From a bacterium (lineage in GTDB: Bacteria > Patescibacteriota > Minisyncoccia > Sungbacterales > HO2-52-23), in assembly GCA_030697705.1 (NCBI GenBank), contig JAUYPE010000017.1:5066-69065 (forward strand): a stretch of DNA of 64,000 nucleotides. The letters run 5' to 3'. Within the stretch, counting starts at the first letter, position 1. Each line of letters starts with the position of its first letter. Below the pieces are notes generated by a model. It saw only the letters and a list, made by a program, of their open reading frames with translations. It made no database searches and was not told the origin of the DNA. This document shows, one piece after another, positions 11,230 to 40,756 of the stretch. The position numbers were made by a program, and so were the translations under genes.

Positions 11230-11325
11230 GCCCGCCAGCGTACCCTATTTTAAGACAAAGGGAAAGGGAGGAAAAAACCATGTTCCATCTTTATCTGTGT
11301 TCATTATCTAAAAATTCCTTGTATA

Positions 11326-12246
11326 TCAGCGGATTCCCGTATCAACATCAATCATGAGCGTCACGGAGCTATTCGTCTTGATATGGACAAGAATGGGAAC
11401 ACCACTGATCCCCCCAACGCCAACCCCCGGATGCGCCATATCAATCCAATAATCCCCCTCCGGCAAAGTCGCGCTGAACTTTCCTTCCGCGTCCGGGGTG
11501 AGTGTGACGACAAGCGTCTTTTTATCCGGCTTATAGACGAAAACTTTCCGTATGGCAAATGTTTCCGGCGATGGCGTGCAGGGACGGTCAATCCTTTCCA
11601 CAGGGCAGATGGGGCCGATCGTCATCACGCCTTCCAGTGTGCCAGTTTTTGTTGTTTGCGGCTGAACGGAAAAACGGATAGGGATGGAAAGTGAATCCGC
11701 ATATTCGGGAAGTCCGGAGGGATTATCCTTTTCCAAAACGATTGTGCCGGTTTTTGTTGTTGCATTTTCAAATATAAGAGTCGCCTCAAACGGAACGAAC
11801 TCCGTTGTCATCCACTCCTTTTGCGCCTGTGCGGGAATAATGCCGAGTTGCTTTCCATTCGCGTCAAAAATCTTAACCGGAAACGATGCTTCAAAATACC
11901 AAGTCCCCCGCGCCTCTCCTTTCACGATGAGCGGACTCGCCACCACGGTATCGGGAAGCGGCGAGCTCACGCGAATAATATCATTTTCTGTTGGTTGGAT
12001 GACTTCGGGCGGCTGTACCGTTTCCGTAAACGACTTTTCCCCCGCGCGGCATTGGCGCGGATAGGATTCCGCCACCGGAAATCCCAAACCTGCGCATCGC
12101 GCAAAACTGTCTGCCGCCCGAATTTTTTGCCATTGAAACACAAAGCACCAGTCATCCGTGCATGAGAGAATAAACCAGCCTCCAAGGCCGGCAACGACCG
12201 CGAGAACGCTCGTTATGGCAATAGCTAATTTTATTTTCATGTTCAA
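11326..12246 (-). CDS. GerMN / Gmad2 Ig-like domain secreted lipoprotein-like protein
   Basis: N-terminal anchor. Repeated beta-rich domains typical of GerM-like proteins. Confidence 0.45.
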   Translation of the reverse strand: MNMKIKLAIAITSVLAVVAGLGGWFILSCTDDWCFVFQWQKIRAADSFARCAGLGFPVAESYPRQCRAGEKSFTETVQPPEVIQPTENDIIRVSSPLPDTVVASPLIVKGEARGTWYFEASFPVKIFDANGKQLGIIPAQAQKEWMTTEFVPFEATLIFENATTKTGTIVLEKDNPSGLPEYADSLSIPIRFSVQPQTTKTGTLEGVMTIGPICPVERIDRPCTPSPETFAIRKVFVYKPDKKTLVVTLTPDAEGKFSATLPEGDYWIDMAHPGVGVGGISGVPILVHIKTNSSVTLMIDVDTGIR

Positions 12247-12264
12247 TTGTAATTATACTTTTGA

Positions 12265-13236
12265 TTAATCGATAATCTCTTTGATGAGCAGATCTTGCAA
12301 TTTCTTTACCTCTGCATCGTCATACATGCTCACGGTCGTTACCAGCGGCGTTAGCTTTTTCATAGACTTGACTATCATGTCTAGTTTTTTTTGGTCGTCC
12401 ATCACGTCGGTTTTGGTCAAAACGACAATTTCTTTTTTTTGCGCGAGCGCCGGATCAAAGCGTTCAAGCTCTCTGCGGACGACGGCATAGGTGTGCGGGA
12501 GATCTTCATGTTCCAATGAAATCAGATGGGCGAGCACTTTCGTGCGTCTGACATGCCGGAGAAATTTATGCCCCAAACCCCTCCCTTCCGCCGCACCTTC
12601 AATGAGTCCGGGAATATCGGAAATGATATAGCCGTGTACCTCGCCGAGATTCGGCTCAAGCGTGGTAAAAGCATAGTCGCCCACCTTGCCCTTGGCATTC
12701 GTCATCGCATTAAGAAGTGTTGTTTTTCCGGCGTTCGGCAGTCCGATCAAACCGATATCCGCAATTAATTCAACCTCAATAAAAAAATCCGCCTCCTCTC
12801 CCGCACTGCCGCGCGTGAATTTTTCGGGCGTCTGATTCGTGGAGCTTTTGAACGACTCGTTGCCCCGTCCCCCATGGCCGCCCTTGAGCAGGAGCACGCG
12901 CTCGCCGTCGTGCAGGAGTGAAATTTTCTCTCCCGTTTTTTTGTTGGTAATGATGGAGCCGACCGGAAACGGTATCTCAAGATCTTTGCCGTCCCCGCCG
13001 TGCGAGTTTTTATTTTTGCCATTCTCCCCCCGTTCCGCTATAAATTTCTTCTCAATCTGATACCGTGCGAGAAGATTGACATTGCGCACCGCCGTCGCGT
13101 ACACGCTCCCTCCTCGTCCGCCATCGCCGCCGGACGGCCCGCCAAATTCGCGATTTTTCTCATGCAACCACCGCACCACGCCGTGGCCGCCGTCCCCCGC
13201 CTTAATATGCAATGTTATCTCATCAACGAATGCCAT
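12265..13236 (-). CDS. obg: GTPase Obg
   Basis: FVDEITLHIKAGDGGHGVV, GGDGGRGGSV, Gly-rich Obg fold, G domain GLPNAGKSTLL and DIPGLIEGA. Start at MAFVDE. Confidence 0.9.
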   Translation of the reverse strand: MAFVDEITLHIKAGDGGHGVVRWLHEKNREFGGPSGGDGGRGGSVYATAVRNVNLLARYQIEKKFIAERGENGKNKNSHGGDGKDLEIPFPVGSIITNKKTGEKISLLHDGERVLLLKGGHGGRGNESFKSSTNQTPEKFTRGSAGEEADFFIEVELIADIGLIGLPNAGKTTLLNAMTNAKGKVGDYAFTTLEPNLGEVHGYIISDIPGLIEGAAEGRGLGHKFLRHVRRTKVLAHLISLEHEDLPHTYAVVRRELERFDPALAQKKEIVVLTKTDVMDDQKKLDMIVKSMKKLTPLVTTVSMYDDAEVKKLQDLLIKEIID

Positions 13237-29597: not shown

Positions 29598-29623
29598 AGG
29601 GAAAGTGAGATATTGCCTCCATT

Positions 29624-30994
29624 CTATCCTCTTTCCCCGCCTTTTTCAATCAATTGCTCAACCTTTTGTTTTGCTTCTTCCAGAAGCTCTTTTGCTTTTA
29701 TGCGCGCCTCATGCGATTGCCTCACCAATTCAGCGATTTTTTGTTGAGCCGCTCTTGGTAAAATGGGAATAAGAATATCTTTTATACTCTCTTTTGGTAC
29801 GGCGGTGAGAATAGTGCCAGCACAGCGTTGTGTAAGCTGATTTTGCACAATGAAACTTTTTGCAATAACAAGCAGAACTTCCGGCAGAACTTCATCGCTT
29901 CTGAATTGAAAAAATCCGGTTGATGCCAGATACCCCTCTTGCTCTTGAGTGACAAGAGCAACTTTTCCCAGTGAACCCTCAACACTAGAGACGATTACAT
30001 CGCCCGCTTTCAATACTCTTTTTGCTCTGCTTGGAGCTTCTTTTCCTAAAACTTTCGTAAAGCCGTCAATTGTCCCGATAGCAGAATTAATATTGGAAAG
30101 CTCAACATAGTTAAAAGATTTATCGGGTTGCACCAGTGTATTAAACTTTGCAAGTACATTATCAAATACTTCCTCCAGCGAACTTGCTTTGTCTGACCTT
30201 AGTTTTGCAAGGAGTTTTTTATATTTCGGTTGAAAGTATTCAGCATCCATCCGGTGTGCATTCTCTATGTCCGAGAAATTGATAATGCTGTACAAATCCC
30301 CATCCGTCGTGAAATCCTTTAACCCCAGCTCCTCCAAAAGCAACTGTTCGGCTTGAGTGTAAAGAGATTTTGAATTCTCTAATTCATGGAGAAAATATTT
30401 GTATGTATCCCCTATTTGTTGTGTTACTTTCTGATCAAAAATAGGGATTTTGAACTTTTTAATCTGTCCAAGAAAGATATTTGCCTGAACGCTACTTACT
30501 ATCTCTCGTTGTGTTTGTAGTAAACCATATTTTGAATTGAGAAATGCGGTCAGATAATAAGGTGACATGGTGTCAAGCGGAGTAATTTTAGCGATAGCTT
30601 GATTGGCATTCGCGCTTCGTGGAAGGTTATGTGCTATTGCCGCGTTTCCGATTGTTCCCGCCATAGTGAGTAAAACTTGACCATTGTTGACTTTTGATTT
30701 TTTTAATATCTCATTAACTTTCTCGCTGATGTACTTTACACTGCTCAAATCAATATATCCGTCATGAACATCACCCACATTTATGTATGGTACGCCTGAC
30801 TCTTGCCATTCAATATGACTAGTAAGCGAGTACGCCCCAAAACTGATAACCGATTTTGAAATTTGCTCTAAGGTTTTTGTTTCTAGCATGGTAAATTTTT
30901 GCTCCAAAGCCAAATACTCCGGCTGATAATACTCCGCATCCAGCCGGTGCGCTCCCTCAAGTTGCGATTTTTGGATTATAGAGAAAGTTGCCAT
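29624..30994 (-). CDS. hsdS: restriction-modification specificity (S) subunit with two target-recognition domains
   Basis: Two TRDs, each followed by the conserved helical spacer (IPIFDQKVTQQIGD..; IPILPRAAQQKIAELV..). Start at MATFSII (ORF track 31102 would overlap upstream gene). Confidence 0.75.
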   Translation of the reverse strand: MATFSIIQKSQLEGAHRLDAEYYQPEYLALEQKFTMLETKTLEQISKSVISFGAYSLTSHIEWQESGVPYINVGDVHDGYIDLSSVKYISEKVNEILKKSKVNNGQVLLTMAGTIGNAAIAHNLPRSANANQAIAKITPLDTMSPYYLTAFLNSKYGLLQTQREIVSSVQANIFLGQIKKFKIPIFDQKVTQQIGDTYKYFLHELENSKSLYTQAEQLLLEELGLKDFTTDGDLYSIINFSDIENAHRMDAEYFQPKYKKLLAKLRSDKASSLEEVFDNVLAKFNTLVQPDKSFNYVELSNINSAIGTIDGFTKVLGKEAPSRAKRVLKAGDVIVSSVEGSLGKVALVTQEQEGYLASTGFFQFRSDEVLPEVLLVIAKSFIVQNQLTQRCAGTILTAVPKESIKDILIPILPRAAQQKIAELVRQSHEARIKAKELLEEAKQKVEQLIEKGGERG

Positions 30995-31079
30995 ACATGT
31001 GTGGATAACCCAGTATTGTTGAGTTTTTGTTGGTAGTGTGCTATGTTTAACTTGGTATATCGGAAGAGGGCGTCGACCG

Positions 31080-31889
31080 TTAGGACGATGGCCCTTTTTC
31101 ATTTGTCTCTAGGGATATAGGCAATCTTTGTTGTATGTCACCATCTACAAAGATATTGAATTTATAGTTTTTAAATCCTTGCGTAAAGTCAGAAACGCCC
31201 ACATTCTTCTTAAAATGTTCAAGAAATCTTCGTTTATATTTATCACCGCGCTGAATCATTCCGGTCTTAAATTTCAAGTCATACGATATCGCTCCAATCA
31301 TAAGATCAGCGATTTGAAGCAGATCATTTGATTTTGAGTCAAAACGCGCCACTCCTGCGATGGATAAGCGACTAAGAGCATCATTGATTTTTCTTTTCAC
31401 ATTCACTTCAAATTTTACATCACGAGGTACTGTTACATGATCAGCAATGACGATTGCGATTTCATTTTGCGCGATATTTGACTTGATAAGCCGAATGGTT
31501 ATATCCTCATACGCTTGCCAAGGATTGCCACCAAATTCCCTCTGAAAATAATTCCCTTGTTTATCAAGTGTATATGAGCAGAAATTGAATCCTTCCGTAG
31601 CAAAAAAAGCGTTTATGGCAAAGACAGCGAAATTAAAATTTTTGTCCGAGAGCTTGTTAAATTTAAGCTCATCATAAAATTGTCGTTTGCTCCTCTCATA
31701 AACGGTCTTGCTTTGAAGATAGTATGGCTGTGAGCATTTGATAGCGCCCACGGTAAAAAACGCCTCCGTCCGATTACTCAAACTTCCGCTCTCATCAAGG
31801 AAAAAGAACTTTGACCAGATGCTTTTATAATCGGCGAGCGCAAGATCTCCTCCTTTCTTATCTTTATGAAAAATTTTATCAAACATCAT
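31080..31889 (-). CDS. DUF3800 family protein inserted between the methyltransferase and S-subunit genes
   Basis: N-terminal FLDESG motif and C-terminal LLQIADLMIGAI motif, characteristic of DUF3800 as I recall it. Confidence 0.55.
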   Translation of the reverse strand: MMFDKIFHKDKKGGDLALADYKSIWSKFFFLDESGSLSNRTEAFFTVGAIKCSQPYYLQSKTVYERSKRQFYDELKFNKLSDKNFNFAVFAINAFFATEGFNFCSYTLDKQGNYFQREFGGNPWQAYEDITIRLIKSNIAQNEIAIVIADHVTVPRDVKFEVNVKRKINDALSRLSIAGVARFDSKSNDLLQIADLMIGAISYDLKFKTGMIQRGDKYKRRFLEHFKKNVGVSDFTQGFKNYKFNIFVDGDIQQRLPISLETNEKGPSS

Positions 31890-31899
31890 GATAGTGCAG

Positions 31900-33852
31900 T
31901 CAAAAACTAAACTTTTGCTCTTTTATAAACTTTAAAAATCCGTCGGCGATGTTGTCCAAGTCGCTGTCTAGTATCTTCTTGCCCCTTCCGTCATGAGCGT
32001 AATTTCCAATTGCGTCTTTCTTGTACATATAATCGCCGGAGTTGTCTTTGCCGCCCTTTTTAGACACAGCCATAAAAATCGGATAGTCCTTTTGCGGCTC
32101 ACCAGCTTCTCCGCCCCATTTCTGCAAAAACAGCACGCTCGTTTTTGTGCCGGTGTGAGGCTTGAATGTATTGCCGTGCAATCCGACCACAGCCAGTATC
32201 CGCGCCTTGTCAAAAAGATACTCGCGGATACTCTCCATATTGGTGTTATTAAGCACGCCCTGCGGAAGCACGATTGCCATTCTGCCGCCCGGGCGGATCA
32301 TATCAAGCGTGCGTTCAATGAAAAGAATATGCCGCTCGGCTTTGTTTACCAGTTTGCCTTTTTTCTTGCCGAAAAAATACTGGCGCAAGATGCCATGGTC
32401 TTTAATCTCGCCCGCAAACGGAGGATTGGTGAGCAGTATGTCAAAATTGAGATAGTGAAATGTTTTTTTATTTTCTTCATTGTCTGCGGTGGAGCCCATA
32501 TCAAACAATCTTTTCTGGAGTTCTGATCGCGCATAAAGCAGATGGCCGTCTTCTCCCTGCCATTCTCGGGAATCAAGGGAGTTGAGCTTAAACAGATGCG
32601 ATCTGCCATCTCCGGCGATAAGCATAAGCGCGCGGGATGTTTTGGAAATTTCGTCCGCAAAATCAATACCCCAGATATTTTTTTGAGCATATTCGCGCAT
32701 CGCCTCATCCGAGCCGCGCAAGTGCCTATCCTTGACGGAATACATCGCGCTGATGAGAAATCCGCCGGAGCCAGCCGCCGGATCTATGACATATTCGTCC
32801 GGTTTAGGATCAAGCATTTTGACGGCCATATTGATGACATGGCGCGGGGTGAAATACTGACCTTTCTTGCCTTTGGCAACTTCGGGTATGAGGTACTCAA
32901 ATGCCTCGTCAATGATTGAGAGATCGGAGCCGAACAGACGGGTTCGTTCAAGCTCTCCGACTACAACGGAAAGATGATCGGGAGACAAGCTGATGTTTTC
33001 CTGCTCGTAGAATGTGCCGGGCCATTTTTTGATAGCTTTTTTAAACAGGTCGTTGATGGTGTTGTATGTTTTTCCCGGATCGCGATATTTGCGAAAAAAG
33101 ATTTCTTTGTCCGGACGCACAAGCGCCTCCGACTCATCATAGAGCTTGGCGTACACAAGTTTGAACACCTCATTGAAAACATCAACGCCCGCGTTTGCAA
33201 GGACAAGCTCCTGCATGGAGTCAATGACTTCTTTGAGATTGATTTTCGTGTTTGTATGTTCAAAGTAGGTTTTCTTTGCTTCCAGAAGGTCATCAATGGT
33301 CTGATCCGATCTCGGAAGATCGGGAAGAGTGTCATTGAACTCGCGTGGGTAAAAACGATACAAGATGACGCGCTTGATGCCGTTTCCCCATACACCAATC
33401 TCCGCGCCCTCGGCGTTTAAATAACCTTTCATCTGCTCAATGCCTTTGCTCTCGGTGGGCGCTTTTACCTCCACAAGAATATAGGGGGTGATTTTGTCCG
33501 GCTTATAAACAACGATATCAACGGCTTTACTGTGAATTTCACGCCCGAAATGAATATCTTTTTCCGTATCCATTCGGTCAAACGGATAGTGATAGTGCTT
33601 ATTGAGCTTAGAGAGCCAAAGTTGGCGGACGATTTCTTCCGGCTTGCCGGTATTTTTCTTTTCATCAAAAACGAACCGAAGCTTGCCCGACTTCAAATCT
33701 TTAATGTAATAACGATCTTTTTCTTCTTCGGTAATGTGTAAAACATCATGAATAGCAATTCCCTCAAACTCTCTCAAGCCAAATGCCATTTCAGAGTCCC
33801 TGAAAATCTTTGTGATAATCTCTTCTGTTCTGTTTGGTTTTTTGGTGGGCAT
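31900..33852 (-). CDS. hsdM: N6-adenine DNA methyltransferase subunit with N-terminal PD-(D/E)xK nuclease-like (HsdR_N-type) domain; either type I HsdM fusion or type IIB (BcgI-like) A subunit
   Basis: MTase motif I VIDPAAGSGGFL and motif IV NPPF (LLTNPPFAG). N-terminal DIVVYKPD ... ILVEVKAP fits a restriction-endonuclease fold. No separate hsdR gene in the window. Confidence 0.75.
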   Translation of the reverse strand: MPTKKPNRTEEIITKIFRDSEMAFGLREFEGIAIHDVLHITEEEKDRYYIKDLKSGKLRFVFDEKKNTGKPEEIVRQLWLSKLNKHYHYPFDRMDTEKDIHFGREIHSKAVDIVVYKPDKITPYILVEVKAPTESKGIEQMKGYLNAEGAEIGVWGNGIKRVILYRFYPREFNDTLPDLPRSDQTIDDLLEAKKTYFEHTNTKINLKEVIDSMQELVLANAGVDVFNEVFKLVYAKLYDESEALVRPDKEIFFRKYRDPGKTYNTINDLFKKAIKKWPGTFYEQENISLSPDHLSVVVGELERTRLFGSDLSIIDEAFEYLIPEVAKGKKGQYFTPRHVINMAVKMLDPKPDEYVIDPAAGSGGFLISAMYSVKDRHLRGSDEAMREYAQKNIWGIDFADEISKTSRALMLIAGDGRSHLFKLNSLDSREWQGEDGHLLYARSELQKRLFDMGSTADNEENKKTFHYLNFDILLTNPPFAGEIKDHGILRQYFFGKKKGKLVNKAERHILFIERTLDMIRPGGRMAIVLPQGVLNNTNMESIREYLFDKARILAVVGLHGNTFKPHTGTKTSVLFLQKWGGEAGEPQKDYPIFMAVSKKGGKDNSGDYMYKKDAIGNYAHDGRGKKILDSDLDNIADGFLKFIKEQKFSF

Positions 33853-33855
33853 AGA

Positions 33856-34500
33856 TTATTTTATTGGTTTCCAGTAGTTGTTCTTTAAAACCGAAACCAC
33901 TTTACCTTTGAGCTCTACATCATCAGTAAAAAGGATATTATTATATTTTGGATTTTCCGGTTTGAGATACACATACGGGGGCTTATCATCAGACATAAAT
34001 CGTTTTATCGTACTGTCATCCCCGATCTGCGCATAGACAATCTCACCCGATATAAACTCTTTCTTTGTTTGCACTAAGACAGCATCACCATCATCAATGC
34101 CTGCGTTGATCATAGAATCGCCTAAAACTTTAAGAATGAATAGATCCTCATCCAAGCGAGAAATCTCCTTTGAGAGCGTTTTCCATTCTCCGGAAATCTC
34201 AAACGATTGAATGGGAGTGCCCGCGCTCGTAACTCCAAGGAACGCCGCGAGAGGCGGTTGGTCAAGGACATTATACCCTGTCCGTAATATGGCAAGCCCG
34301 CGCGCCGCCGTCTCATTGCGCCTTATCAATCCCGCTCGCTTGAGTTTCTCTAAAAGGTCCATCACCGACTGATTGGAAGAAACGCCAAGACGCTCCCGCA
34401 TCTCTTCAAATGTGGGTGGGTATCCCGTATCTCTCGTGTACTCGTATATAATACTTAAGAGCTCTTTTTGCCTCTTGGTAATGATCTTCTCCATCACCAT
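33856..34500 (-). CDS. lexA: LexA-family repressor (winged-helix DNA-binding domain plus S24 peptidase)
   Basis: N-terminal LTKRQKELL..GYPPTFEEM..LG..S...V..HL..L.RAGLI. C-terminal LKVLGDSMINAGIDDGDAVLV with catalytic Ser, and Lys in IKRF. Confidence 0.8.
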   Translation of the reverse strand: MVMEKIITKRQKELLSIIYEYTRDTGYPPTFEEMRERLGVSSNQSVMDLLEKLKRAGLIRRNETAARGLAILRTGYNVLDQPPLAAFLGVTSAGTPIQSFEISGEWKTLSKEISRLDEDLFILKVLGDSMINAGIDDGDAVLVQTKKEFISGEIVYAQIGDDSTIKRFMSDDKPPYVYLKPENPKYNNILFTDDVELKGKVVSVLKNNYWKPIK

Positions 34501-34509
34501 TAGTGTACC

Positions 34510-34523
34510 CGACCATATGTTCT
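34510..34523. promoter_or_regulatory. candidate LexA (Cheo-type) operator immediately upstream of lexA
   Basis: cgaccatatgttct matches CGAACRNRYGTTCG at 12/14 positions. It sits 10 nt upstream of the lexA start. Confidence 0.4.
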
Positions 34524-34783
34524 GGATGCAAATAGATGTCTGTGGATAAGTTCCACATAAGTTCGGAAGAAAATGGCGTTAGAATTTCCAATCAAGTAGT
34601 TGGCGAAGGTGAACGAGCCGCTGGAATTATTCACTGCAATGATTGTCATGAATAAGGCGTTGGTGGTATTCTTAACCGAGAGGCGGTAGTTCTCTTTATA
34701 TCGTATCGCCTGTGAAGTAAAGAAATAAAAGGTCGAAACATGTTATCTGCATTATAAACTTTACCGTAATTCTAGAACAAATC

Positions 34784-35671
34784 ATGAAAAAAATAATTAT
34801 CAGCTTGAGTGTGATCGCGGCGATAGCCGCAGTTGCGGTGGGTGCGACCACGGCGTTCTTCTCGGATACCGAGACCTCGCGAGGCAACACCTTTACCGCA
34901 GGAGCGATTGACTTAAAGATTGACAGCAGATGCCACTGGAGCGGCGGGGACACGGGATCAACGACGTGTCCGTGGGAGAGTGCGAATTGGCAAGAAACCG
35001 ATCTGGGAACTCAGAAATTCTTCAGCTTCAATGATATCAAGCCGGGTGACTGGGGAGAGAACACTATCAGCATCCATGTCCACGACAATGACGCATGGGG
35101 ATCGTGGGGCATTGCAAACGCAACGAGCAGTGAGGGCACTTGCACCGAACCTGAAACGGAAACGCAGGCATTGGGAACTACTCCGTGCGTGGAAAACGCC
35201 ACGCCGGGTCAGCTTAGAGCGGGCATGACCGGTAAGGCGTGGCTTGATCAGGGAAGTACTCCGGGATTTCAGTGCAATGATCCGAATGGTGATACGACAA
35301 CAGCCGGTGCGGGATGCCTTCGTGATCCGTTTGAGGGAGATAATGTGTGGCAACAACAATCTGAACCGGTAATCGCGAGCACTGTGGCTCCCCAGTCATT
35401 CTTTGATGTTTTCACGAATATTGATCTGGCAGGACCCCTTGCGGCAGAGGCGAGCGCAAAATGCGAGGCGGCGGCGGTAGACGGACACGATGACTACGGA
35501 CCATGCCACGGCCTTGCACGGGATGGTCGTTTGGTAGGGAGCGTTACTTATTACATCGGCTGGAAGTGGCATCTTGATCCCAGTACCGGAAATGAAGCGC
35601 AAACCGACACGCTTGGCGGCGATGTGTGGTTTAAAGCCGAACAGCACCGCAATAATCCCGGTCCCACCTAA
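34784..35671 (+). CDS. TasA/camelysin-like (peptidase M73 family) secreted protein with SipW-cognate signal peptide
   Basis: Signal MKKIIISLSVIAAIAAVAVGATTAFFSDTE (TIGR04088-type AFFSDTE motif). Camelysin-like FFSFNDIKPGDWGENTISIHV. Confidence 0.7.
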   Translation: MKKIIISLSVIAAIAAVAVGATTAFFSDTETSRGNTFTAGAIDLKIDSRCHWSGGDTGSTTCPWESANWQETDLGTQKFFSFNDIKPGDWGENTISIHVHDNDAWGSWGIANATSSEGTCTEPETETQALGTTPCVENATPGQLRAGMTGKAWLDQGSTPGFQCNDPNGDTTTAGAGCLRDPFEGDNVWQQQSEPVIASTVAPQSFFDVFTNIDLAGPLAAEASAKCEAAAVDGHDDYGPCHGLARDGRLVGSVTYYIGWKWHLDPSTGNEAQTDTLGGDVWFKAEQHRNNPGPT

Positions 35672-35742
35672 CGACGATCTTCGTCTTTGACGTAAACTAA
35701 CCTTCTCTTGGTTCTTATCAGAGCGGAGAGAAGATATGTCTC

Positions 35743-36537
35743 ATGAAAAAGATCATTTTTAGTTTGGGCGTGATCGGCGCGGTTGCCGTTATGGCGGTTG
35801 GGGGTACCGTTGCGTTTTTTAACGACACGGAGACCTCACAGGGTAATGTCTTTATAGCCGGATCCGTGGATCTGCAGGTGGACAGCTTCGGCGCGTCTTA
35901 CAATGGCGAGGATATTGAGACGCCCGGCTCGGCGTGGACCTCCCGAAATTTGACGAACCAGAAATTCTTTTCGTTTGACGACATTAAGCCCGGGGACTAT
36001 GGCATGCGTCACATCAGCGTACATGTGGACGGCAATCCTGCGTGGGCGTGCCTCCTCGTAACGAACAAAGAGGACGAAGAGAATGATCTGAACGATGCGG
36101 AGCATGACGCGGGAGATACCACACCGGATAGGGGCGAGCTCTCGCGCTACCTGCATGCCTTCGGCTGGCAGGACGATGACTCTGACGGAAGGTATGATCC
36201 GCACCATGGCGAAAAGGCGCTCAAAATCCACAACGATCCCGATGCGGACTTTAACTCGTTCTTTGATGTCTTCTATGATCTTGACATAGCCGACTCGCAG
36301 TCCAGCACCGATCCGCTTCCGCCAAATGGCCCGGCAACGACGCGCAATATCGCGGTTGCGTGGTGCGCGGGCGTGCAGTCGGTCAATCATCAGACGGGAG
36401 TAATCTCCTGCGACGGCTCCGATGTGCGGGATGATGCGCAGTCCGACTCGTTCAGTGCCGACGTGGTGCTCTACGGAGAACAGGTGCGCAATAATCCGAA
36501 TTTCAGGTGTGCGGACGTCCTCCTGCCTCCGCTCTAA
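35743..36537 (+). CDS. TasA/camelysin-like secreted protein with SipW-cognate signal peptide (paralog)
   Basis: VAFFNDTETSQGN and FFSFDDIKPGDYGMRHISVHV. Confidence 0.7.
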   Translation: MKKIIFSLGVIGAVAVMAVGGTVAFFNDTETSQGNVFIAGSVDLQVDSFGASYNGEDIETPGSAWTSRNLTNQKFFSFDDIKPGDYGMRHISVHVDGNPAWACLLVTNKEDEENDLNDAEHDAGDTTPDRGELSRYLHAFGWQDDDSDGRYDPHHGEKALKIHNDPDADFNSFFDVFYDLDIADSQSSTDPLPPNGPATTRNIAVAWCAGVQSVNHQTGVISCDGSDVRDDAQSDSFSADVVLYGEQVRNNPNFRCADVLLPPL

Positions 36538-36650
36538 TGTTAAGAAGAGTAACTCCACAAGATATGCGCTAAGACCTTTCACTCCCCCTCTCCGCTTGTG
36601 ACGGAGGGAGGGAGCACAGAGAGCTTATCACACAGGAGGTCTTGATTTTT

Positions 36651-37187
36651 ATGGACACAAAAAAAATTGCCATCACCAGTTATTATGTGTTTGTCAGCGT
36701 ACTCGGCATCGTGGGAGTTTTGGTTGTCGTTTCGGCTTTCCCGATTACCGGTAATTTTAAGATTATGGCGGTGTTGTCCGGCTCTATGGAGCCGGCTATT
36801 CGGACCGGCAGTATTGTCGTCGTGCGTCCCAGTACCAGCTATTCCATTGGCAATATTGTTACCTTCACCGGAACAAGTGGGGGGAAAAGCATCCCGATCA
36901 CGCATCGGGTGATGGAAATACGAGTGGATCGGGGCGTGCCTTCATATATAACTAAAGGAGACGCGAATAATGCGCCCGACGCACGGCTCGTTGCGCACCG
37001 AGAGATTATCGGGGGGTTGGTATTTTCTGTTCCCTATCTTGGCTATGGGGTGGAGACCGCGCGAAAGCCCTACGGTCTTGCGGCACTGATTCTGCTTCCC
37101 GCGGCATTGATCATCATTGACCAGGCGGGAAGAATTAAAAAAGAACTTGCCAGGTTACGACGCGAAAAAGAAGAAAAAACCATCTGA
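36651..37187 (+). CDS. sipW: signal peptidase I, SipW (S26B, archaeal/ER-type)
   Basis: LSGSMEP catalytic Ser box and conserved His in ITHRV. AGGAGG Shine-Dalgarno 12 nt upstream of ATG 36651. Confidence 0.75.
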   Translation: MDTKKIAITSYYVFVSVLGIVGVLVVVSAFPITGNFKIMAVLSGSMEPAIRTGSIVVVRPSTSYSIGNIVTFTGTSGGKSIPITHRVMEIRVDRGVPSYITKGDANNAPDARLVAHREIIGGLVFSVPYLGYGVETARKPYGLAALILLPAALIIIDQAGRIKKELARLRREKEEKTI

Positions 37188-37189
37188 AC

Positions 37190-39463
37190 ATGAAAACGAA
37201 AAGTTTTTTTCCAAAAATAACGGCGCTCGCCCTTATCCTCACGCTTAACGCGGGCGGGATTTTGACGGTCGGCTCCACGCTCGCGTTTTTTAACGATGCC
37301 GAGACAGCGGGTGATAGTTTGTTTGTGGCGGGAATACTTAATTTTTCCCTCGCTTCTGATGAATGGACTCCTGTTGATAGTGCCGGGGCGCTCAAATCAG
37401 GAGATATGATAACGCGGCATATGAGCATTCTGGCGGGTGACAGTATTCCCTTTCAATATCGGATCAGAACAATAAAAACATCGGGAGATGATGCGTTTTG
37501 CGGCGCACTGCACATGGTTGCGAGCCGTGGGGCTGTTTCGTTGTATGACGGCGTGCTGATGGATTTTGATCTCACGCCTCCGGTAGAAATTGAGGGAGAC
37601 GGACAGGATGATTGGTCGTTTAAGATGAGTATGCCGACCAGTGCTGGCTCCTTTGTCGGGAAAACATGCGAATTTCGCTTTGTCGTGGACGGATGGCAGG
37701 TGGAGTTTCCCGACGGGACAGGCGGATTCAGCGACCGAGAGGCGCTTGAAAATATTCTTGAGAGCGATGATACGGCTCGAGAAGACGGCGGGCAAAACAT
37801 TTCAGCGCTGGAGGACTCATACGGCGAACAGGAGCATCCGGATGACACGAATGGAACTGCGGGCGACCTGCGGGTAAAATCACAATCGGGCGGGAAGAAT
37901 AAACGCGCCTTCGTCCGCTTTGATTTCCCTTTTCCCGACGGGACGGCAATTCAGTCGGCGGCATTAAAAATGTTCATGGATGATGCGCCTTCCGCGTCGC
38001 GGACGTATGCGGTCGCCCGAACGCTCTCGCCATGGACTGAAGCGAGTATTTCGTGGAACAATCAGCCGGGAACATCCAGTCCCATGAGCGCATCGGCGGT
38101 AACCGGAATTACCGATGATCAATGGCTTGCGTGGGATGTCAAAGATGACGCGAGCGCATTTGTGGCGGGTACGGCTACCAATTATGGATGGACCGTATTT
38201 GACGCGATGGAGAGTTCGGCAACCGCCCGTGAGGGAAAGTTCAGCTCAAGTGAAAATAGCCATCAAGACAAGCGACCGGTGCTGGAGGTCGCATTCAGCG
38301 CACCCCCCGCAACCACATCGCATATCGTCATAAACGAAGTATACGCCGATGTGGGAGACGGAAGGGGTTCCGAAGGGACGAATGAGTGGGTTGAGCTCTA
38401 TAACCCGACGGAGTCGGCTGTTGACATCAAGGATTGGCAGGTGTGCGATGCGGCATCGTGCGATTCGTTTGCAACAACTTCATCCTCAATCATGCTTCCG
38501 AGCCGCGGATTCGCAGTGGTGACGGCTGGTACCTCCACCTGGCAACATTGGGTGCTTCCCGAAGGAGCGATACGGATCGTTCTTGGCGCGAACATCGGCG
38601 GTGGACTCGCAAATCCCGGAGATGCGGTTATTTTGAAGAATGCCTCCAGCGCCGAAATTGACGCGATGAGCTACGGGACCGACACCTCAAAATTAAATCC
38701 TGCAGTTCCCGTTTCAGGCGAGGGCAACTCACTTGCGCGAATCGTAAAGGGATACGACGCAGAATTGGCAAACGACTGGATTATCAATGCGACGGCAAAT
38801 CCGGGAACCAATCCATCCGAGGATGGTACCAGTGAGGTCATGCGCTTCACGAGCCGCGGTAGTGAAGTTGCGGCCGGTGAGAACGGCTTGCCCGCTCTGG
38901 ACACTACGGCGATTCCCGACGAACCGGAAAAACAGATTCTGAAAGAAGAGCCACCGCCTGAAGTTAAGAAGGATGGAGAAGAAACGGAGGACGCCGGGGT
39001 AAGAGATGCGATTAACACCGATGGGGAGCCGGCGTCCTCCCATGCGGCACCAACCGATGGAGATGAATTGCCGCTTATGGTACCGTCAGAAGAAGATCAA
39101 GCAACCACGATGGTGGTTGTTGAATCACACGACGCTGCGACGACAACCTTGTTGATTCTTGAAGGAGAGCTACAATCAACGCCTGTGGAGGAGCGTGTGC
39201 CTGCCGATACAGAGACACCTCACGCCGACGGGACGGAACAAGATATCGTACCGGAACCGGATGGGGTAAATCACAGCAACATGGGTGAGAGTCAAATTTT
39301 ACCTCCGGCGACCATCCCGGAAGTTACGAATGAAAACGCCCTACTGCCAGCGGAAAATAAGCCCGCTGGTGGCGGTGATGGAGGGGGTGATCCGACCACT
39401 CCCGCGGGCGGCGAGGAAGTACCGTTGCCCACACCCATTGCCGACAACGCGGTATTGCAATAA
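37190..39463 (+). CDS. large secreted protein with SipW-cognate signal peptide and a lamin-tail domain (LTD)
   Basis: LAFFNDAETAGD signal motif. LTD-like HIVINEVYADVGDG...NEWVELYNPTESAVDIKDWQV...GDAVILKNASSAEIDAMSYG. Acidic, Pro/Glu-rich C-terminus. Confidence 0.6.
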   Translation: MKTKSFFPKITALALILTLNAGGILTVGSTLAFFNDAETAGDSLFVAGILNFSLASDEWTPVDSAGALKSGDMITRHMSILAGDSIPFQYRIRTIKTSGDDAFCGALHMVASRGAVSLYDGVLMDFDLTPPVEIEGDGQDDWSFKMSMPTSAGSFVGKTCEFRFVVDGWQVEFPDGTGGFSDREALENILESDDTAREDGGQNISALEDSYGEQEHPDDTNGTAGDLRVKSQSGGKNKRAFVRFDFPFPDGTAIQSAALKMFMDDAPSASRTYAVARTLSPWTEASISWNNQPGTSSPMSASAVTGITDDQWLAWDVKDDASAFVAGTATNYGWTVFDAMESSATAREGKFSSSENSHQDKRPVLEVAFSAPPATTSHIVINEVYADVGDGRGSEGTNEWVELYNPTESAVDIKDWQVCDAASCDSFATTSSSIMLPSRGFAVVTAGTSTWQHWVLPEGAIRIVLGANIGGGLANPGDAVILKNASSAEIDAMSYGTDTSKLNPAVPVSGEGNSLARIVKGYDAELANDWIINATANPGTNPSEDGTSEVMRFTSRGSEVAAGENGLPALDTTAIPDEPEKQILKEEPPPEVKKDGEETEDAGVRDAINTDGEPASSHAAPTDGDELPLMVPSEEDQATTMVVVESHDAATTTLLILEGELQSTPVEERVPADTETPHADGTEQDIVPEPDGVNHSNMGESQILPPATIPEVTNENALLPAENKPAGGGDGGGDPTTPAGGEEVPLPTPIADNAVLQ

Positions 39464-39472
39464 AAGAATATA

Positions 39473-40756
39473 ATGCATATTCCGGTTGTCAGCTTTTCGC
39501 TCCTAAAAAAGATTGTGCTCGCGGGCGTTGTGCTTGTGTGTTCATTCGGTTTTCCTTATGCACATGCCGCGAATGATGACCTTGTGGTTGAGTTTGAACA
39601 GACCCCCCTTTTTAACAAGGCGAATTTTCTGCCGGGCGAGATGGTAAGCCGTACCGTGAAGGTAACGAACAATACAGGCGCGTCCCAACAGATTACGACA
39701 GAGGCGATTGCCATAAGCGATCCGCATCATCTGGGCGATGTTTTACGCATAACGGTGAAAGAGGGCGCCATCATGTTTTTTGACGGAACGCTTGCGGAGT
39801 TTTTTGGCAGCGGCGCGCATATGCTCTCCCATCTGGCGGCAGGAGTTGCGACAACCTACACCTACTCGGTTTCGTTTAAGTCCGATGCGGGCAACGCGTA
39901 TCAGGAAGAATCGCTCGGTTTTGATATACTCGTCGGATTTGAGGGCAATGCGGGAGACGGCAATCCTTCTTCACCCGAAGGAGGTGTGACCCCGCAAGGT
40001 GGTGGAGGCACGGGCGGTACAAGTGGTGGAGGTGGTGATTCTGGCGGTCCTCGGGGGCTTACTATTACCGGCGAGCTTGTTCGCGTTGTTGAAATTGGCG
40101 AGACCACTGTGATCATTGAATGGGGCACGAGTTATGAATCCACGAGCCGCGTCGTGTACGGCACGGCGAGCGGATTATTCAATTTTTCCAACACTCCCAA
40201 TTACGGCTACCCACTTTCCACCATTGAATCCGACGCGCCGGCACATCCCAACGGTGTTCTCGCTCACCGCGTCCTCATCAGCGGACTCGTACCGGCAACG
40301 ATCTATTATTTTCGTACGATTTCCCACGCCTCACCCGACACAATCGGTTTTGAACATACTTTTACGACTCTAGGCTCCCGCGACAGTCAAAGCGCGGTCA
40401 TTGCTTCCGGCGGGCGGCTTCCCATATCCTCTTCGGGAGAGGTGCTTGTTTCGGCGGGTGGAGAAAGGAGCGTACAACGGATTGGATCGGGTGCCGAGGT
40501 GAATAATGCTCCCTTTCCTCTCTCTCGCGCTTCAGAAAGTAGCGCAGGCGACACGGGTGTTTCGGAACGCCGGAATGAAAATCTGTTGGAGGATGCTGGC
40601 CGCGCATTCACTCCCCTCCTCGCCGTTCTTTCCGCCGCCCTGCCGTTTGTCGGTAAAGAAGGAGGTCGCATCATGCTTATTGTTCTGATAATCGCTCTGC
40701 TTCTTTCCCTTATCGTCTGGCGCCTCTCTCGCCACAGAAGAAAAAATAAGAAGTAG
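39473..40756 (+). CDS. secreted protein with fibronectin type III-like domain, Gly-rich linker and C-terminal TM anchor
   Basis: Signal peptide. FN3-like LTITGELVRVVEIGETTVIIEWGT...YYFRTIS. C-terminal IMLIVLIIALLLSLIVW + RLSRHRRKNKK. Confidence 0.5.
   Translation: MHIPVVSFSLLKKIVLAGVVLVCSFGFPYAHAANDDLVVEFEQTPLFNKANFLPGEMVSRTVKVTNNTGASQQITTEAIAISDPHHLGDVLRITVKEGAIMFFDGTLAEFFGSGAHMLSHLAAGVATTYTYSVSFKSDAGNAYQEESLGFDILVGFEGNAGDGNPSSPEGGVTPQGGGGTGGTSGGGGDSGGPRGLTITGELVRVVEIGETTVIIEWGTSYESTSRVVYGTASGLFNFSNTPNYGYPLSTIESDAPAHPNGVLAHRVLISGLVPATIYYFRTISHASPDTIGFEHTFTTLGSRDSQSAVIASGGRLPISSSGEVLVSAGGERSVQRIGSGAEVNNAPFPLSRASESSAGDTGVSERRNENLLEDAGRAFTPLLAVLSAALPFVGKEGGRIMLIVLIIALLLSLIVWRLSRHRRKNKK

What the first reader, a model, noticed from the sequence alone, without database searches (positions are those of the whole stretch)
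31900..33852. Methyltransferase subunit carries its own restriction-endonuclease-like N-terminal domain; no hsdR nearby
Residues about 90-160 (DIVVYKPD...ILVEVKAP) form a PD-(D/E)xK-like motif preceding the gamma-class MTase (NPPF). Together with a separate two-TRD S subunit this resembles type IIB RM enzymes (A = nuclease+MTase, B = specificity) rather than a classical type I system.
Basis: partly seen in the sequence, partly recalled or inferred. Interest (0 to 1): 0.55.

Follow-up and report, generated by a model that had tools for sequence, protein, structure and literature searches.

The report
LexA-led nuclease–methylase restriction operon
The gene encodes a DNA methyltransferase fused to its own DNA-cutting domain which, with a separate DNA-recognition subunit and no motor subunit, most likely forms a BcgI/BsaXI-style (type IIB-like) restriction enzyme; that kind is already known, but here it is co-transcribed with the SOS repressor LexA, a pairing that recurs throughout Patescibacteria.

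Summary
ORF 31900-33852 (-) encodes a 650-aa protein with an HSDR_N_2 PD-(D/E)xK domain (aa 61-180), a helical connector, a gamma-class N6-adenine MTase (DPAAGSGGF, then NPPF) and a C-terminal helix. A two-TRD S subunit lies downstream. No HsdR-like helicase was found in the window or in 81 related loci.

The closest solved structure, by both sequence and fold, is the type IIB enzyme BsaXI. Its four experimentally essential nuclease residues align with E97, D112, E128 and K130. These residues, plus a RecB/HsdR-type QxxxY motif, are conserved across the family. The type IIB-like reading is therefore supported, but cleavage itself is untested.

Three features lie outside the finding:
- The gene is the second in a lexA-RM-DUF3800-S operon with a dyad operator inside the promoter.
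- The RM-S gap is a variable slot that holds unrelated defence-type genes in other genomes. Here it holds an RNase H2-like DUF3800 protein.
- In 66 of 66 evaluable metagenome loci chosen by LexA similarity, an RM module follows lexA directly. It is this family in 51 and another RM type in 15.

The core system is a new member of a known kind. The LexA-led organisation is a possible new variant.

The parts
34541..34549 (-). DnaA-box-like 9-mer TTATCCACA upstream of the lexA promoter. Its role is unknown.
   Evidence: Read directly from the sequence. The exact 9-mer is at the equivalent position in L005, L013 and L014, TTATTCACA in L011, 1-mismatch variants in L003, L007, L008 and L019, and it is reversed in L016.
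34502..34531 (-). Putative lexA operon promoter. The -35 TTGCAT is at 34526-34531 and the -10 TACACT at 34502-34507. The dyad operator CCAGAACATATGGTCGGG (34508-34525) fills the spacer.
   Evidence: Sequence. The same TTGAC / (C)CNGAC-N6-GTCGGG / TAnnAT layout is present upstream of lexA in 13 related loci, and the arms are perfect palindromes in L013 and L017. It is the only strong match in the 64-kb window (PWM score 23.4, next best 11.5). LexA binding is inferred, not shown.
33856..34500 (-). lexA (LexA_DNA_bind + Peptidase_S24). The likely start is the ATG at 34494 (212 aa), 7 nt after the -10 hexamer, which suggests a leaderless mRNA.
   Evidence: TIGR00498 lexA scores 153 bits against a cut-off of 110.95, and Pfam matches. 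GDSM and KR motifs and an Ala-Gly pair are visible in the translation. NCBI's own model is 212 aa (P0272).
31900..33852 (-). RM subunit (650 aa): nuclease, helical connector, gamma-class m6A MTase and C-terminal helix. It starts 3 nt after the lexA stop codon.
33313..33672 (-). PD-(D/E)xK (RecB/HsdR-type) nuclease domain, aa 61-180. Putative catalytic residues are E97, D112, E128 and K130, with Q140xxxY144.
   Evidence: HSDR_N_2 E = 4.3e-19. The domain profile hits the BsaXI nuclease domain (1.5e-9), then Cas4 (0.0014) and HsdR 3h1t (0.0015), across the D...ExK...QxxxY region. Conservation is shown.
32053..32817 (-). N6-adenine MTase catalytic domain, aa 346-600 (motif I DPAAGSGGF, motif IV NPPF).
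   Evidence: N6_Mtase E = 4.1e-37. Motif positions. Motif residues are invariant in 120 close homologues.
31918..31959 (-). C-terminal helix (aa 632-645), the predicted contact with the coiled-coil conserved regions of S.
   Evidence: Helix H632-645 in the AF2 model. PMC11997821 describes a lone C-terminal helix with this role in the RM+S type IIB enzymes and in M.EcoKI. The contact is inferred.
31080..31889 (-). DUF3800 protein (269 aa) in the variable slot between RM and S. It has an RNase H2-like fold and is a likely accessory nuclease or defence effector.
   Evidence: Pfam DUF3800 37 bits against a cut-off of 21. PADLOC PDC-M04A E = 6.9e-20. The AF2 model has pLDDT 85.9, and all 24 top Foldseek PDB hits are RNase HII/H2/HIII. 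D32, E33, Q192 and D195 are invariant. GC is 0.375.
29624..30994 (-). S (specificity) subunit, 456 aa counted from M37, with two TRDs. The open frame extends to 31102.
   Evidence: Two Methylase_S stretches. It matches HsdS chains 5ybb_D and 3okg (1.3e-24) and 1yf2 over residues 42-452. The N-terminus MxxxSIIxKSQLEGAxRLDAEYYQPEY is shared with the S proteins of L001, L003 and L005.

Best explanation
The locus encodes a two-subunit, motor-less restriction-modification enzyme of the BcgI/BsaXI (type IIB-like, 'RM + S') kind. It is carried in a Patescibacteria chromosome as the cargo of a lexA-led operon.

Shown by sequence or structure prediction:
- The 650-aa RM protein joins a RecB/HsdR-type PD-(D/E)xK nuclease domain to a helical connector, a gamma-class N6-adenine methyltransferase and a C-terminal helix.
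- The S protein has two target-recognition domains.
- No helicase or translocase subunit is present.

Inferred by analogy with BsaXI and BcgI:
- Two RM chains bind one S through the C-terminal helices and the S coiled coil.
- The complex reads a bipartite asymmetric site, methylates one adenine in each half-site with AdoMet and cuts unmodified DNA at short fixed distances, without ATP-driven translocation.

Inferred from the operon layout:
- lexA, RM, DUF3800 and S are transcribed from one promoter whose spacer holds a dyad operator.
- LexA therefore represses its own operon, and DNA damage (RecA-stimulated self-cleavage) raises RM expression.
- The DUF3800 gene (RNase H2-like) occupies an exchangeable slot between RM and S. 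It is probably a separate or cooperating defence nuclease, not a core RM subunit.
For: Domains.

Closest solved relative:
- BsaXI RM is the top hit by sequence (E = 2.1e-26, both domains aligned) and by fold.
- BsaXI E73, D90, E105 and K107 align with E97, D112, E128 and K130.

Conservation:
- In 85 diverse relatives these four positions are kept in 70, 85, 79 and 80 of 86 sequences. Q140 and Y144 are kept in 79 and 78.
- In 120 close homologue clusters all are invariant or 119/120. The nuclease domain is as conserved (82%) as the MTase domain (83%).
- The domain profile hits BsaXI, Cas4 and HsdR nuclease domains across D...ExK...QxxxY. QxxxY is the RecB-family motif of HsdR (PMC2475608).

S partner: of 81 related loci, 65 have S within five genes downstream, 4 have fused M-S, 9 are truncated and 3 have none.

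No HsdR.

Operon:
- Gaps are 3 nt (lexA-RM), 10 nt (RM-DUF3800) and 85 nt (DUF3800-S).
- lexA lies upstream of RM in 13 of 13 Patescibacteria-type genome loci, directly in 12 and with one 149-aa ORF between in L005. It is directly upstream in 3 of 3 LexA-chosen look-ups and 51 of 66 LexA-chosen metagenome loci.
- The operator is conserved.

Slot contents.
Against: - No biochemical data exist. Cleavage, its position relative to the site, and AdoMet/ATP dependence are all inferred.
- Identity to BsaXI is only 22-24%. The protein lacks BsaXI's extra about 270 residues (knob and paddle), and two paddle residues were also needed for BsaXI cleavage.
- BcgI, the better size match, could not be compared.
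- The best curated profile hits are MADS MAD2 and MAD5, and PADLOC's top model labels the family 'type I MTase'. Other roles for the nuclease domain are therefore conceivable.
- LexA binding to the operator, and a single transcript, are not demonstrated. The generic promoter scan did not pick up the lexA promoter.
Confidence: 0.7

Rival explanations
1. Composite defence system. RM + S acts mainly as the methylation-based self/non-self sensor, and the gene in the variable slot (here the DUF3800 RNase H2-like protein) is the real effector. This would be a minimal relative of MADS, or of type I loci with embedded effectors.
For: - The best NCBIfam hits are MADS MAD2 (1.7e-90) and MAD5 (2.3e-50).
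- In MADS-like fashion, several relatives carry an AAA_15/OLD-type ATPase between M and S, with weak mad3 similarity (L015, L041, L055, L087).
- DUF3800 matches a PADLOC defence-candidate family and is a retron type VII partner (PMC7736814).
Against: - Scores are far below the MAD2 and MAD5 cut-offs (304 against 720, 172 against 400).
- 44 of 81 loci have M and S directly adjacent with nothing in the slot, so the pair works without a slot gene.
- Slot genes are mutually unrelated.
- The nuclease catalytic residues of RM are conserved whatever the slot holds.
Confidence: 0.15
2. Methylation-only (orphan M + S) system. The N-terminal PD-(D/E)xK-like domain is used for DNA binding, regulation or subunit contacts, not cleavage. 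Alternatively it is a classical type I system whose HsdR is encoded elsewhere.
For: - Databases name these proteins 'N-6 DNA methylase' or 'type I M'. PADLOC's best model is MTase_I.
- The S subunit is type I HsdS-like.
- Only 64 kb of the genome is visible.
Against: - All catalytic positions, including QxxxY, are under strong conservation equal to the MTase core.
- No HsdR-like ORF was found in 81 loci with up to 10 kb on each side, whereas type I hsdR is normally linked.
- The closest solved relative is an active nuclease-MTase fusion.
Confidence: 0.1
3. The lexA linkage is incidental. lexA is simply the cell's SOS repressor gene, and its 3' flank is an insertion hotspot for mobile RM modules, with no regulatory meaning.
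For: - The cargo after lexA changes type: this family, TdeIII-type II, D12 + HNH and others.
- Recombinase or transposase genes lie next to some loci (L087, L003).
- The cassette has low GC (0.375-0.458) against its neighbours (0.53-0.58).
Against: - Gaps of 1-5 nt, or overlaps, between lexA and the first RM gene in every case imply co-transcription.
- No separate promoter space exists.
- LexA also appears next to distant M-S pairs in other arrangements (L031, L041).
- Even as a hotspot, read-through from the LexA-controlled promoter would couple expression.
Confidence: 0.3

Closest known systems
BsaXI (type IIB RM; PDB 8w0p/8w2p/8w2q; PMC11997821)
   Same: It has an RM fusion chain with an N-terminal PD-(D/E)xK nuclease, a helical connector and a gamma-class m6A MTase, plus a separate S subunit and no motor. 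It is the best sequence and fold match. Its four essential nuclease residues align with E97, D112, E128 and K130.
   Different: Identity is only 22-24%. BsaXI RM is 916 aa with 'knob' and 'paddle' elements (the paddle also matters for cleavage), which the 650-aa protein lacks. BsaXI lacks the QxxxY motif at the aligned position. No LexA linkage is reported for it.
BcgI and other 'RM + S' type IIB enzymes (BcgI, BveI, Hso63250II, HpyUM, as described in PMC11997821)
   Same: The architecture described there is R, helical connector, then an EcoKI-like MTase with a lone C-terminal helix that packs on the S coiled coil. That matches the AF2 model. From my own knowledge, the BcgI A subunit is about 637 aa, close to the 650 aa here.
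   Different: No BcgI sequence was available to the tools, so homology was not tested. The S subunit here (456 aa) is a full-size type I-like HsdS.
Classical type I RM (EcoKI, EcoR124I)
   Same: The M core and the S subunit are HsdM/HsdS-like. The nuclease domain is the HsdR N-terminal type with D...ExK...QxxxY.
   Different: There is no HsdR and no SF2 motor. The nuclease domain is fused to M instead.
MADS (methylation-associated defence system) MAD2/MAD5
   Same: These are the best curated NCBIfam hits. The MAD2 model aligns from residue 64, so it includes the nuclease domain. Some relatives carry an ATPase between M and S.
   Different: Scores are well below the equivalog cut-offs. The operon has none of the other mad genes. 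The MADS paper could not be read here.
Type I RM loci with embedded 'restriction-linked' genes (prrC in EcoprrI; rlo genes of Campylobacter). From my own knowledge, not checked here.
   Same: A variable, unrelated defence-type gene sits inside the RM operon between its subunit genes.
   Different: Here the host system is motor-less, and the slot lies between RM and S in a lexA-led operon.

Membership tests
Type IIB RM, 'RM + S' group (BcgI/BsaXI-like) | One polypeptide with an N-terminal PD-(D/E)xK endonuclease, a helical connector and a gamma-class N6-adenine MTase | tested here: met
   Pfam HSDR_N_2 at 71-180 and N6_Mtase at 313-603. Motif order. AF2 domain layout. Full-length Foldseek alignment to BsaXI.
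Type IIB RM, 'RM + S' group (BcgI/BsaXI-like) | Nuclease catalytic residues equivalent to BsaXI E73/D90/E105/K107 are present and conserved | tested here: met
   They align with E97, D112, E128 and K130. They are conserved in 70-85 of 86 diverse relatives and in 119-120 of 120 close ones. The mutagenesis data are in PMC11997821.
Type IIB RM, 'RM + S' group (BcgI/BsaXI-like) | Separate S subunit with TRD1-CR1-TRD2-CR2, encoded next to RM | tested here: met
   Two Methylase_S stretches. HsdS structures match over residues 42-452. S lies downstream in 65 of 81 loci and is fused in 4.
Type IIB RM, 'RM + S' group (BcgI/BsaXI-like) | No ATP-dependent translocase subunit | tested here: met
   No ResIII or helicase domain in the window ORFs or in the ten largest neighbours of related loci. 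No ORF of 700 aa or more with Walker A plus DExH in any related locus. The rest of the genome is unseen.
Type IIB RM, 'RM + S' group (BcgI/BsaXI-like) | Cuts both strands on both sides of a bipartite site, excising a short fragment; needs AdoMet and Mg2+ | not testable with these tools
   This is a biochemical property.
BsaXI subfamily proper | 'Knob' (and often 'paddle') insertions; more than 50% identity to BsaXI (PMC11997821) | tested here: not met
   22-24% identity. The protein is 650 aa against 916 aa.
Classical type I RM | HsdR subunit (nuclease + SF2 helicase motor) together with HsdM and HsdS | tested here: not met
   HsdM-like and HsdS-like parts are present. No HsdR in the window or in related loci.
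MADS | MAD2 and MAD5 equivalogs plus the further mad genes in one locus | tested here: not met
   MAD2 scores 304 bits against a cut-off of 720, and MAD5 172 against 400. The operon holds only lexA, RM, DUF3800 and S, and its flanks are dnaG/rpoD and camelysin-like genes.
Type IIG/IIL single-chain RM (MmeI, BpuSI, DrdV) | Nuclease, MTase and TRD all in one chain | tested here: not met
   S is a separate gene. These structures rank below BsaXI and HsdM. Some relatives are M-S fusions of 779-1191 aa (L072, L076-L078).
LexA (SOS repressor) | LexA DNA-binding domain plus S24 self-cleaving peptidase; score above the equivalog cut-off | tested here: met
   TIGR00498 scores 153 bits against 110.95. 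Pfam matches. The GDSM serine, KR lysine and an Ala-Gly pair are visible in the translation. Self-cleavage and operator binding were not tested.
DUF3800 (PF12686; retron type VII partner; PADLOC PDC-M04A) | Pfam score above cut-off; N-terminal DE and C-terminal QxxD motifs; RNase H2-like fold | tested here: met
   37.1 bits against 21. D32/E33 and Q192/D195 are invariant. RNase HII/H2/HIII structures fill the top 24 Foldseek hits. The motifs are as described in PMC7736814.

The most novel reading that the evidence does not exclude
In Patescibacteria (and some neighbouring lineages such as Saganbacteria), lexA is regularly the first gene of an operon whose cargo is a restriction-modification system of changing type. 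Most often the cargo is this nuclease-MTase + S family, with a hypervariable defence-gene slot. Restriction and defence in these small-genome bacteria would then be wired to the SOS DNA-damage signal through a conserved dyad operator in a leaderless lexA promoter. This could serve either as inducible defence or as a feedback loop that raises methylation when self-restriction damages the chromosome.
Probability: 0.35. Interest if true: 0.65.

Novelty: new variant of a known kind. Interest (0 to 1): 0.5.

Why it matters
- Annotation: these very abundant proteins are annotated 'N-6 DNA methylase' or 'type I M' (more than 8000 candidates,439 representative clusters at E <= 0.001). With no REase gene alongside, they would probably be scored as incomplete or orphan systems, though I did not run a defence-system caller on them. 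Recognising them as self-sufficient nuclease-MTase enzymes changes how much restriction capacity is credited to Patescibacteria.
- New enzymes: the family could yield compact type IIB-like enzymes (650 aa, without knob or paddle). That is useful for testing how such enzymes cut on both sides of a site, a question the BsaXI paper leaves open.
- Regulation: if the lexA coupling is functional, it would be a general link between the SOS response and RM control. It would also make lexA a ready-made anchor for finding new defence genes, both in the RM-S slot and in the lexA 3' flank.

Tried and rejected
- HsdR search: I looked among every ORF of 300 aa or more in the window, the ten largest neighbours in related loci, and by a Walker A + DExH screen of all ORFs. 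None was found. The only hits were 508-aa proteins 5-6 kb away in the L026-L030 subclade, which are too short for HsdR.
- Rfam scan of the window and of 29-35 kb, looking for DUF3800-associated RNA motifs and other RNAs: only two tRNAs elsewhere.
- Repeat search for S-gene shufflon or phase-variation features: only short matches consistent with chance.
- Operator elsewhere in the window, as a test for a wider SOS regulon: no second strong site.
- Classic Cheo box GAAC-N4-GTTC: the window site fits with one mismatch, but the other loci do not. The conserved element is GAC-N6-GTC with CC/GG flanks.
- Homology between DUF3800 and the 271-aa and 281-aa slot proteins of L003 and L005: none.
- MADS membership: rejected on scores and gene content.
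- Viral contigs: relatives at 47% identity or less occur there, but none of the lexA-linked clade. I did not pursue this.
Full report
**Observation.** The ORF at 31900-33852 (minus strand) encodes 650 aa.
- DIVVYKPD is residues 112-119 and ILVEVKAP is 125-132. DPAAGSGGF (AdoMet motif I) is 357-365 and NPPF (motif IV) is 476-479, which is the gamma-class order.
- Pfam gives HSDR_N_2 over the whole model at residues 71-180 (E = 4.3e-19, 69 bits against a cut-off of 25). It gives N6_Mtase at 313-603 (E = 4.1e-37). The motif is therefore part of a real domain and not a chance match.
- Downstream on the same strand are a DUF3800 gene (31080-31889) and a two-TRD S gene. The S frame is open from 31102, but the conserved N-terminus starts at M37, at 30994.
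- A bona fide lexA lies upstream (TIGR00498, 153 bits against 110.95). Its stop codon is 3 nt before the RM start.
- The flanks are dnaG and rpoD on one side and camelysin-like, SipW-like and LTD genes on the other. Nothing resembling hsdR is present in the window.

**What the N-terminal domain is.**
- The best PDB sequence match of the whole protein is the RM chain of the type IIB enzyme BsaXI (8w0p, E = 2.1e-26). A second aligned stretch covers the N-terminal domain.
- In that alignment, BsaXI E73, D90, E105 and K107 fall on E97, D112, E128 and K130. Alanine mutants of those four BsaXI residues lose cleavage, and the residues are conserved across type IIB enzymes (PMC11997821).
- A profile of the domain alone hits BsaXI (1.5e-9), then a Cas4 nuclease (0.0014) and the HsdR of 3h1t (0.0015). 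Each alignment runs across aD...vExK...QLxxY. QxxxY is the RecB-family motif known from HsdR of EcoR124I (PMC2475608).
- The AF2 model (pLDDT 86.7) shows a beta-rich alpha/beta domain at 58-175, a helical region at 186-345, the Rossmann-type MTase and a last helix at 632-645. This matches the R, helical connector, M and lone C-terminal helix layout that the BsaXI paper describes for 'RM + S' type IIB enzymes such as BcgI.
- In Foldseek, three BsaXI chains come first (E = 5.6e-28 to 9.3e-26, 655-661 aligned columns). HsdM structures follow at about 1e-17 and align only about 420-470 columns.

**Is the nuclease likely to be active?**
- Among 85 diverse relatives from 50%-identity clusters, the residue is kept in these numbers of 86 sequences: E73 81, E97 70 (plus 6 D), D112 85, E128 79, K130 80, Q140 79, Y144 78.
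- Among 120 close homologue clusters, all are invariant or 119/120. The nuclease domain is as conserved (82%) as the MTase domain (83%).
- This is the pattern expected of a working catalytic domain.

**Family and context.** The family is large and taxonomically wide.
- In 81 related loci, S lies within five genes downstream in 65 (directly adjacent in 44). M and S are fused in 4, nine contigs end too soon and three have no S.
- No HsdR-like protein was found. The ten largest neighbours are housekeeping or unrelated proteins. No ORF of 700 aa or more carries Walker A plus DExH.
- The core unit is therefore RM + S without a motor.

**What it is not.**
- It is not a classical type I system, because HsdR is absent.
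- It is not a MADS locus. MAD2 scores 304 bits against 720 and MAD5 172 against 400, and no other mad genes are present.
- It is not a member of the BsaXI subfamily proper (22-24% identity, no knob or paddle).
- PADLOC's best model calls it a type I MTase (E = 1.7e-167, covering the nuclease domain). This shows how such proteins are currently filed.

**The operon.**
- In all 13 Patescibacteria-type genome loci with upstream sequence, lexA lies upstream of RM. It is directly upstream, usually 3-4 nt away, in 12, and one 149-aa ORF intervenes in L005. L018, a Nitrospira MAG, lacks it.
- Starting instead from LexA, three look-ups again gave lexA-RM-X-S in different neighbourhoods.
- Of 80 metagenome loci fetched by LexA similarity (63-79% identity), 66 have enough downstream sequence to judge. 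In 51 of them this RM family starts right after lexA.
- The other 15 also carry an RM module 1-5 nt after lexA:
  - an N6_N4 MTase with a TdeIII-type REase;
  - a different 611-628-aa N6_Mtase, with its own PEF...VVECK motif, plus a short S;
  - a fused MTase-S;
  - two D12 MTases plus an HNH protein;
  - an Eco57I-like MTase.
- The constant part is therefore lexA and its promoter, and the cargo is always RM.

**The promoter.** Upstream of lexA the loci share a -35 TTGAC, a dyad (C)CNGAC-N6-GTCGGG and a -10 TAnnAT. The dyad is a perfect palindrome in L013 and L017.
- In the window these elements are TTGCAT (34526-34531), CCAGAACATATGGTCGGG (34508-34525) and TACACT (34502-34507).
- The ATG at 34494 lies 7 nt after the -10 hexamer, as in other loci. 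This suggests a leaderless lexA mRNA and a 212-aa LexA, matching NCBI's model.
- No other strong operator copy exists in the 64 kb.
- That LexA binds this dyad is an inference from its position and symmetry.

**The slot between RM and S.** Its length varies from 282 to 3600 nt and its contents are unrelated families:
- DUF3800 (window, L014, L019);
- a NYN RNase (L001);
- OLD-like AAA_15 ATPases, with TOPRIM similarity in L015 and L055 (L015, L041, L055, L087);
- a trypsin-like protease plus an RnlA-DBD-like protein (L011);
- RhuM (L042) and DUF6119 (L061);
- several proteins with no family.

The window's DUF3800 protein keeps the DE and QxxD motifs. It is modelled at pLDDT 85.9, and only RNase HII/H2/HIII structures appear in its top 24 PDB matches. 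This agrees with the RNase H2-like assignment made for retron type VII partners (PMC7736814). The cassette has lower GC (0.375-0.458) than dnaG (0.58) or the camelysin-like gene (0.55), which is consistent with horizontal origin.

**Mechanism, with status.**
- Shown: the domain composition, the conserved catalytic residues, the S partner, the absence of a motor, the tight gene spacing, and the conserved promoter and dyad.
- Inferred by analogy with BsaXI and BcgI: (RM)2S assembly through the C-terminal helix and the S coiled coil, a bipartite site, m6A in each half-site, and ATP-independent cutting near the site.
- Inferred from layout: LexA autorepression of the whole operon and induction after DNA damage.
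- Speculative: the purpose of this coupling (inducible defence, or a feedback that raises methylation after self-cleavage), and the role of DUF3800.

**Novelty and limits.** The core is a new, uncharacterised member family of a known kind (RM + S type IIB-like). The lexA-led organisation with an exchangeable defence slot is, as far as the searchable literature shows, undescribed. However, the one paper on the Patescibacteria SOS network could not be read. No biochemical property was or could be tested. BcgI was not available for comparison, and only 64 kb of this genome is visible.

Noticed in passing
window 34541-34549 (-) and 31000-31008 (-); L005, L013, L014, L016, L007, L008: A DnaA-box-like 9-mer, TTATCCACA, sits 10 nt upstream of the lexA -35 hexamer in the window and at the equivalent position in most related loci. 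A second copy lies 8 nt before the S start codon in the window. Copies flank S in L016, L007 and L008. The window has 7 TTATNCACA sites where about 2 would be expected. The function is unknown; possibilities include DnaA control and a cassette boundary.
   Followed up: partly
L173, L174, L195, L197, L203, L213, L219, L237 and similar loci (gene directly after lexA): When lexA is not followed by this RM family, it is followed within 1-5 nt by another RM module: N6_N4 MTase + TdeIII REase, two D12 MTases + HNH, or another nuclease-like N6_Mtase + short S. The lexA 3' flank looks like a dedicated RM position.
   Followed up: partly
window 34494-34507 (-); lexA starts of L003, L005, L008, L019: The lexA ATG lies 6-7 nt after the -10 hexamer in the window and in related loci. 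This suggests leaderless lexA mRNAs. The longest ORF start at 34500 is probably not the one used.
   Followed up: no
window 29624-34500 compared with its flanks: The cassette is GC-poor against dnaG (0.58) and the camelysin-like gene (0.55). The values are lexA 0.44, RM 0.46, DUF3800 0.375 and S 0.40. This is consistent with horizontal acquisition, most recently of the slot gene and the TRDs.
   Followed up: no
L026, L028, L029, L030 (match at about 10001-12778): A subclade in methanotroph and other proteobacterial MAGs has a longer M (929-953 aa, close to BsaXI's length). A conserved 508-509-aa protein with GVGKT and DEAH motifs lies 5-6 kb downstream. Neither was examined.
   Followed up: no
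L072, L076, L077, L078: Single-chain M-S fusions of 779-1191 aa occur in the same family. They parallel the single-chain 'RMS' group of type IIB enzymes.
   Followed up: no
L093-L172 (IMG/VR contigs): Relatives of the RM protein at 47% identity or less are common on predicted viral or prophage contigs. None belongs to the lexA-linked Patescibacteria clade.
   Followed up: no
window 34784-40756 (+): Divergent from lexA is a cluster of two camelysin/TasA-like secreted proteins (Peptidase_M73 N-termini), a SipW-like S24/S26 peptidase, a 757-aa CBM96 + lamin-tail-domain protein and a 427-aa protein. It looks like a cell-surface fibre or matrix operon.
   Followed up: partly
window 29621-29649 (-): A good sigma-70-like promoter match (TTGAAA-17-TAGAAT) lies inside the 3' end of S, just upstream of dnaG. 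No convincing terminator follows S. Read-through from the lexA operon into dnaG-rpoD is therefore possible.
   Followed up: no
L087 5447-6763 (-); L003 470-1651 (-): A serine recombinase (L087) and a Transposase_mut gene (L003) lie immediately upstream of lexA in two loci. This hints at how the lexA-RM unit might move.
   Followed up: no
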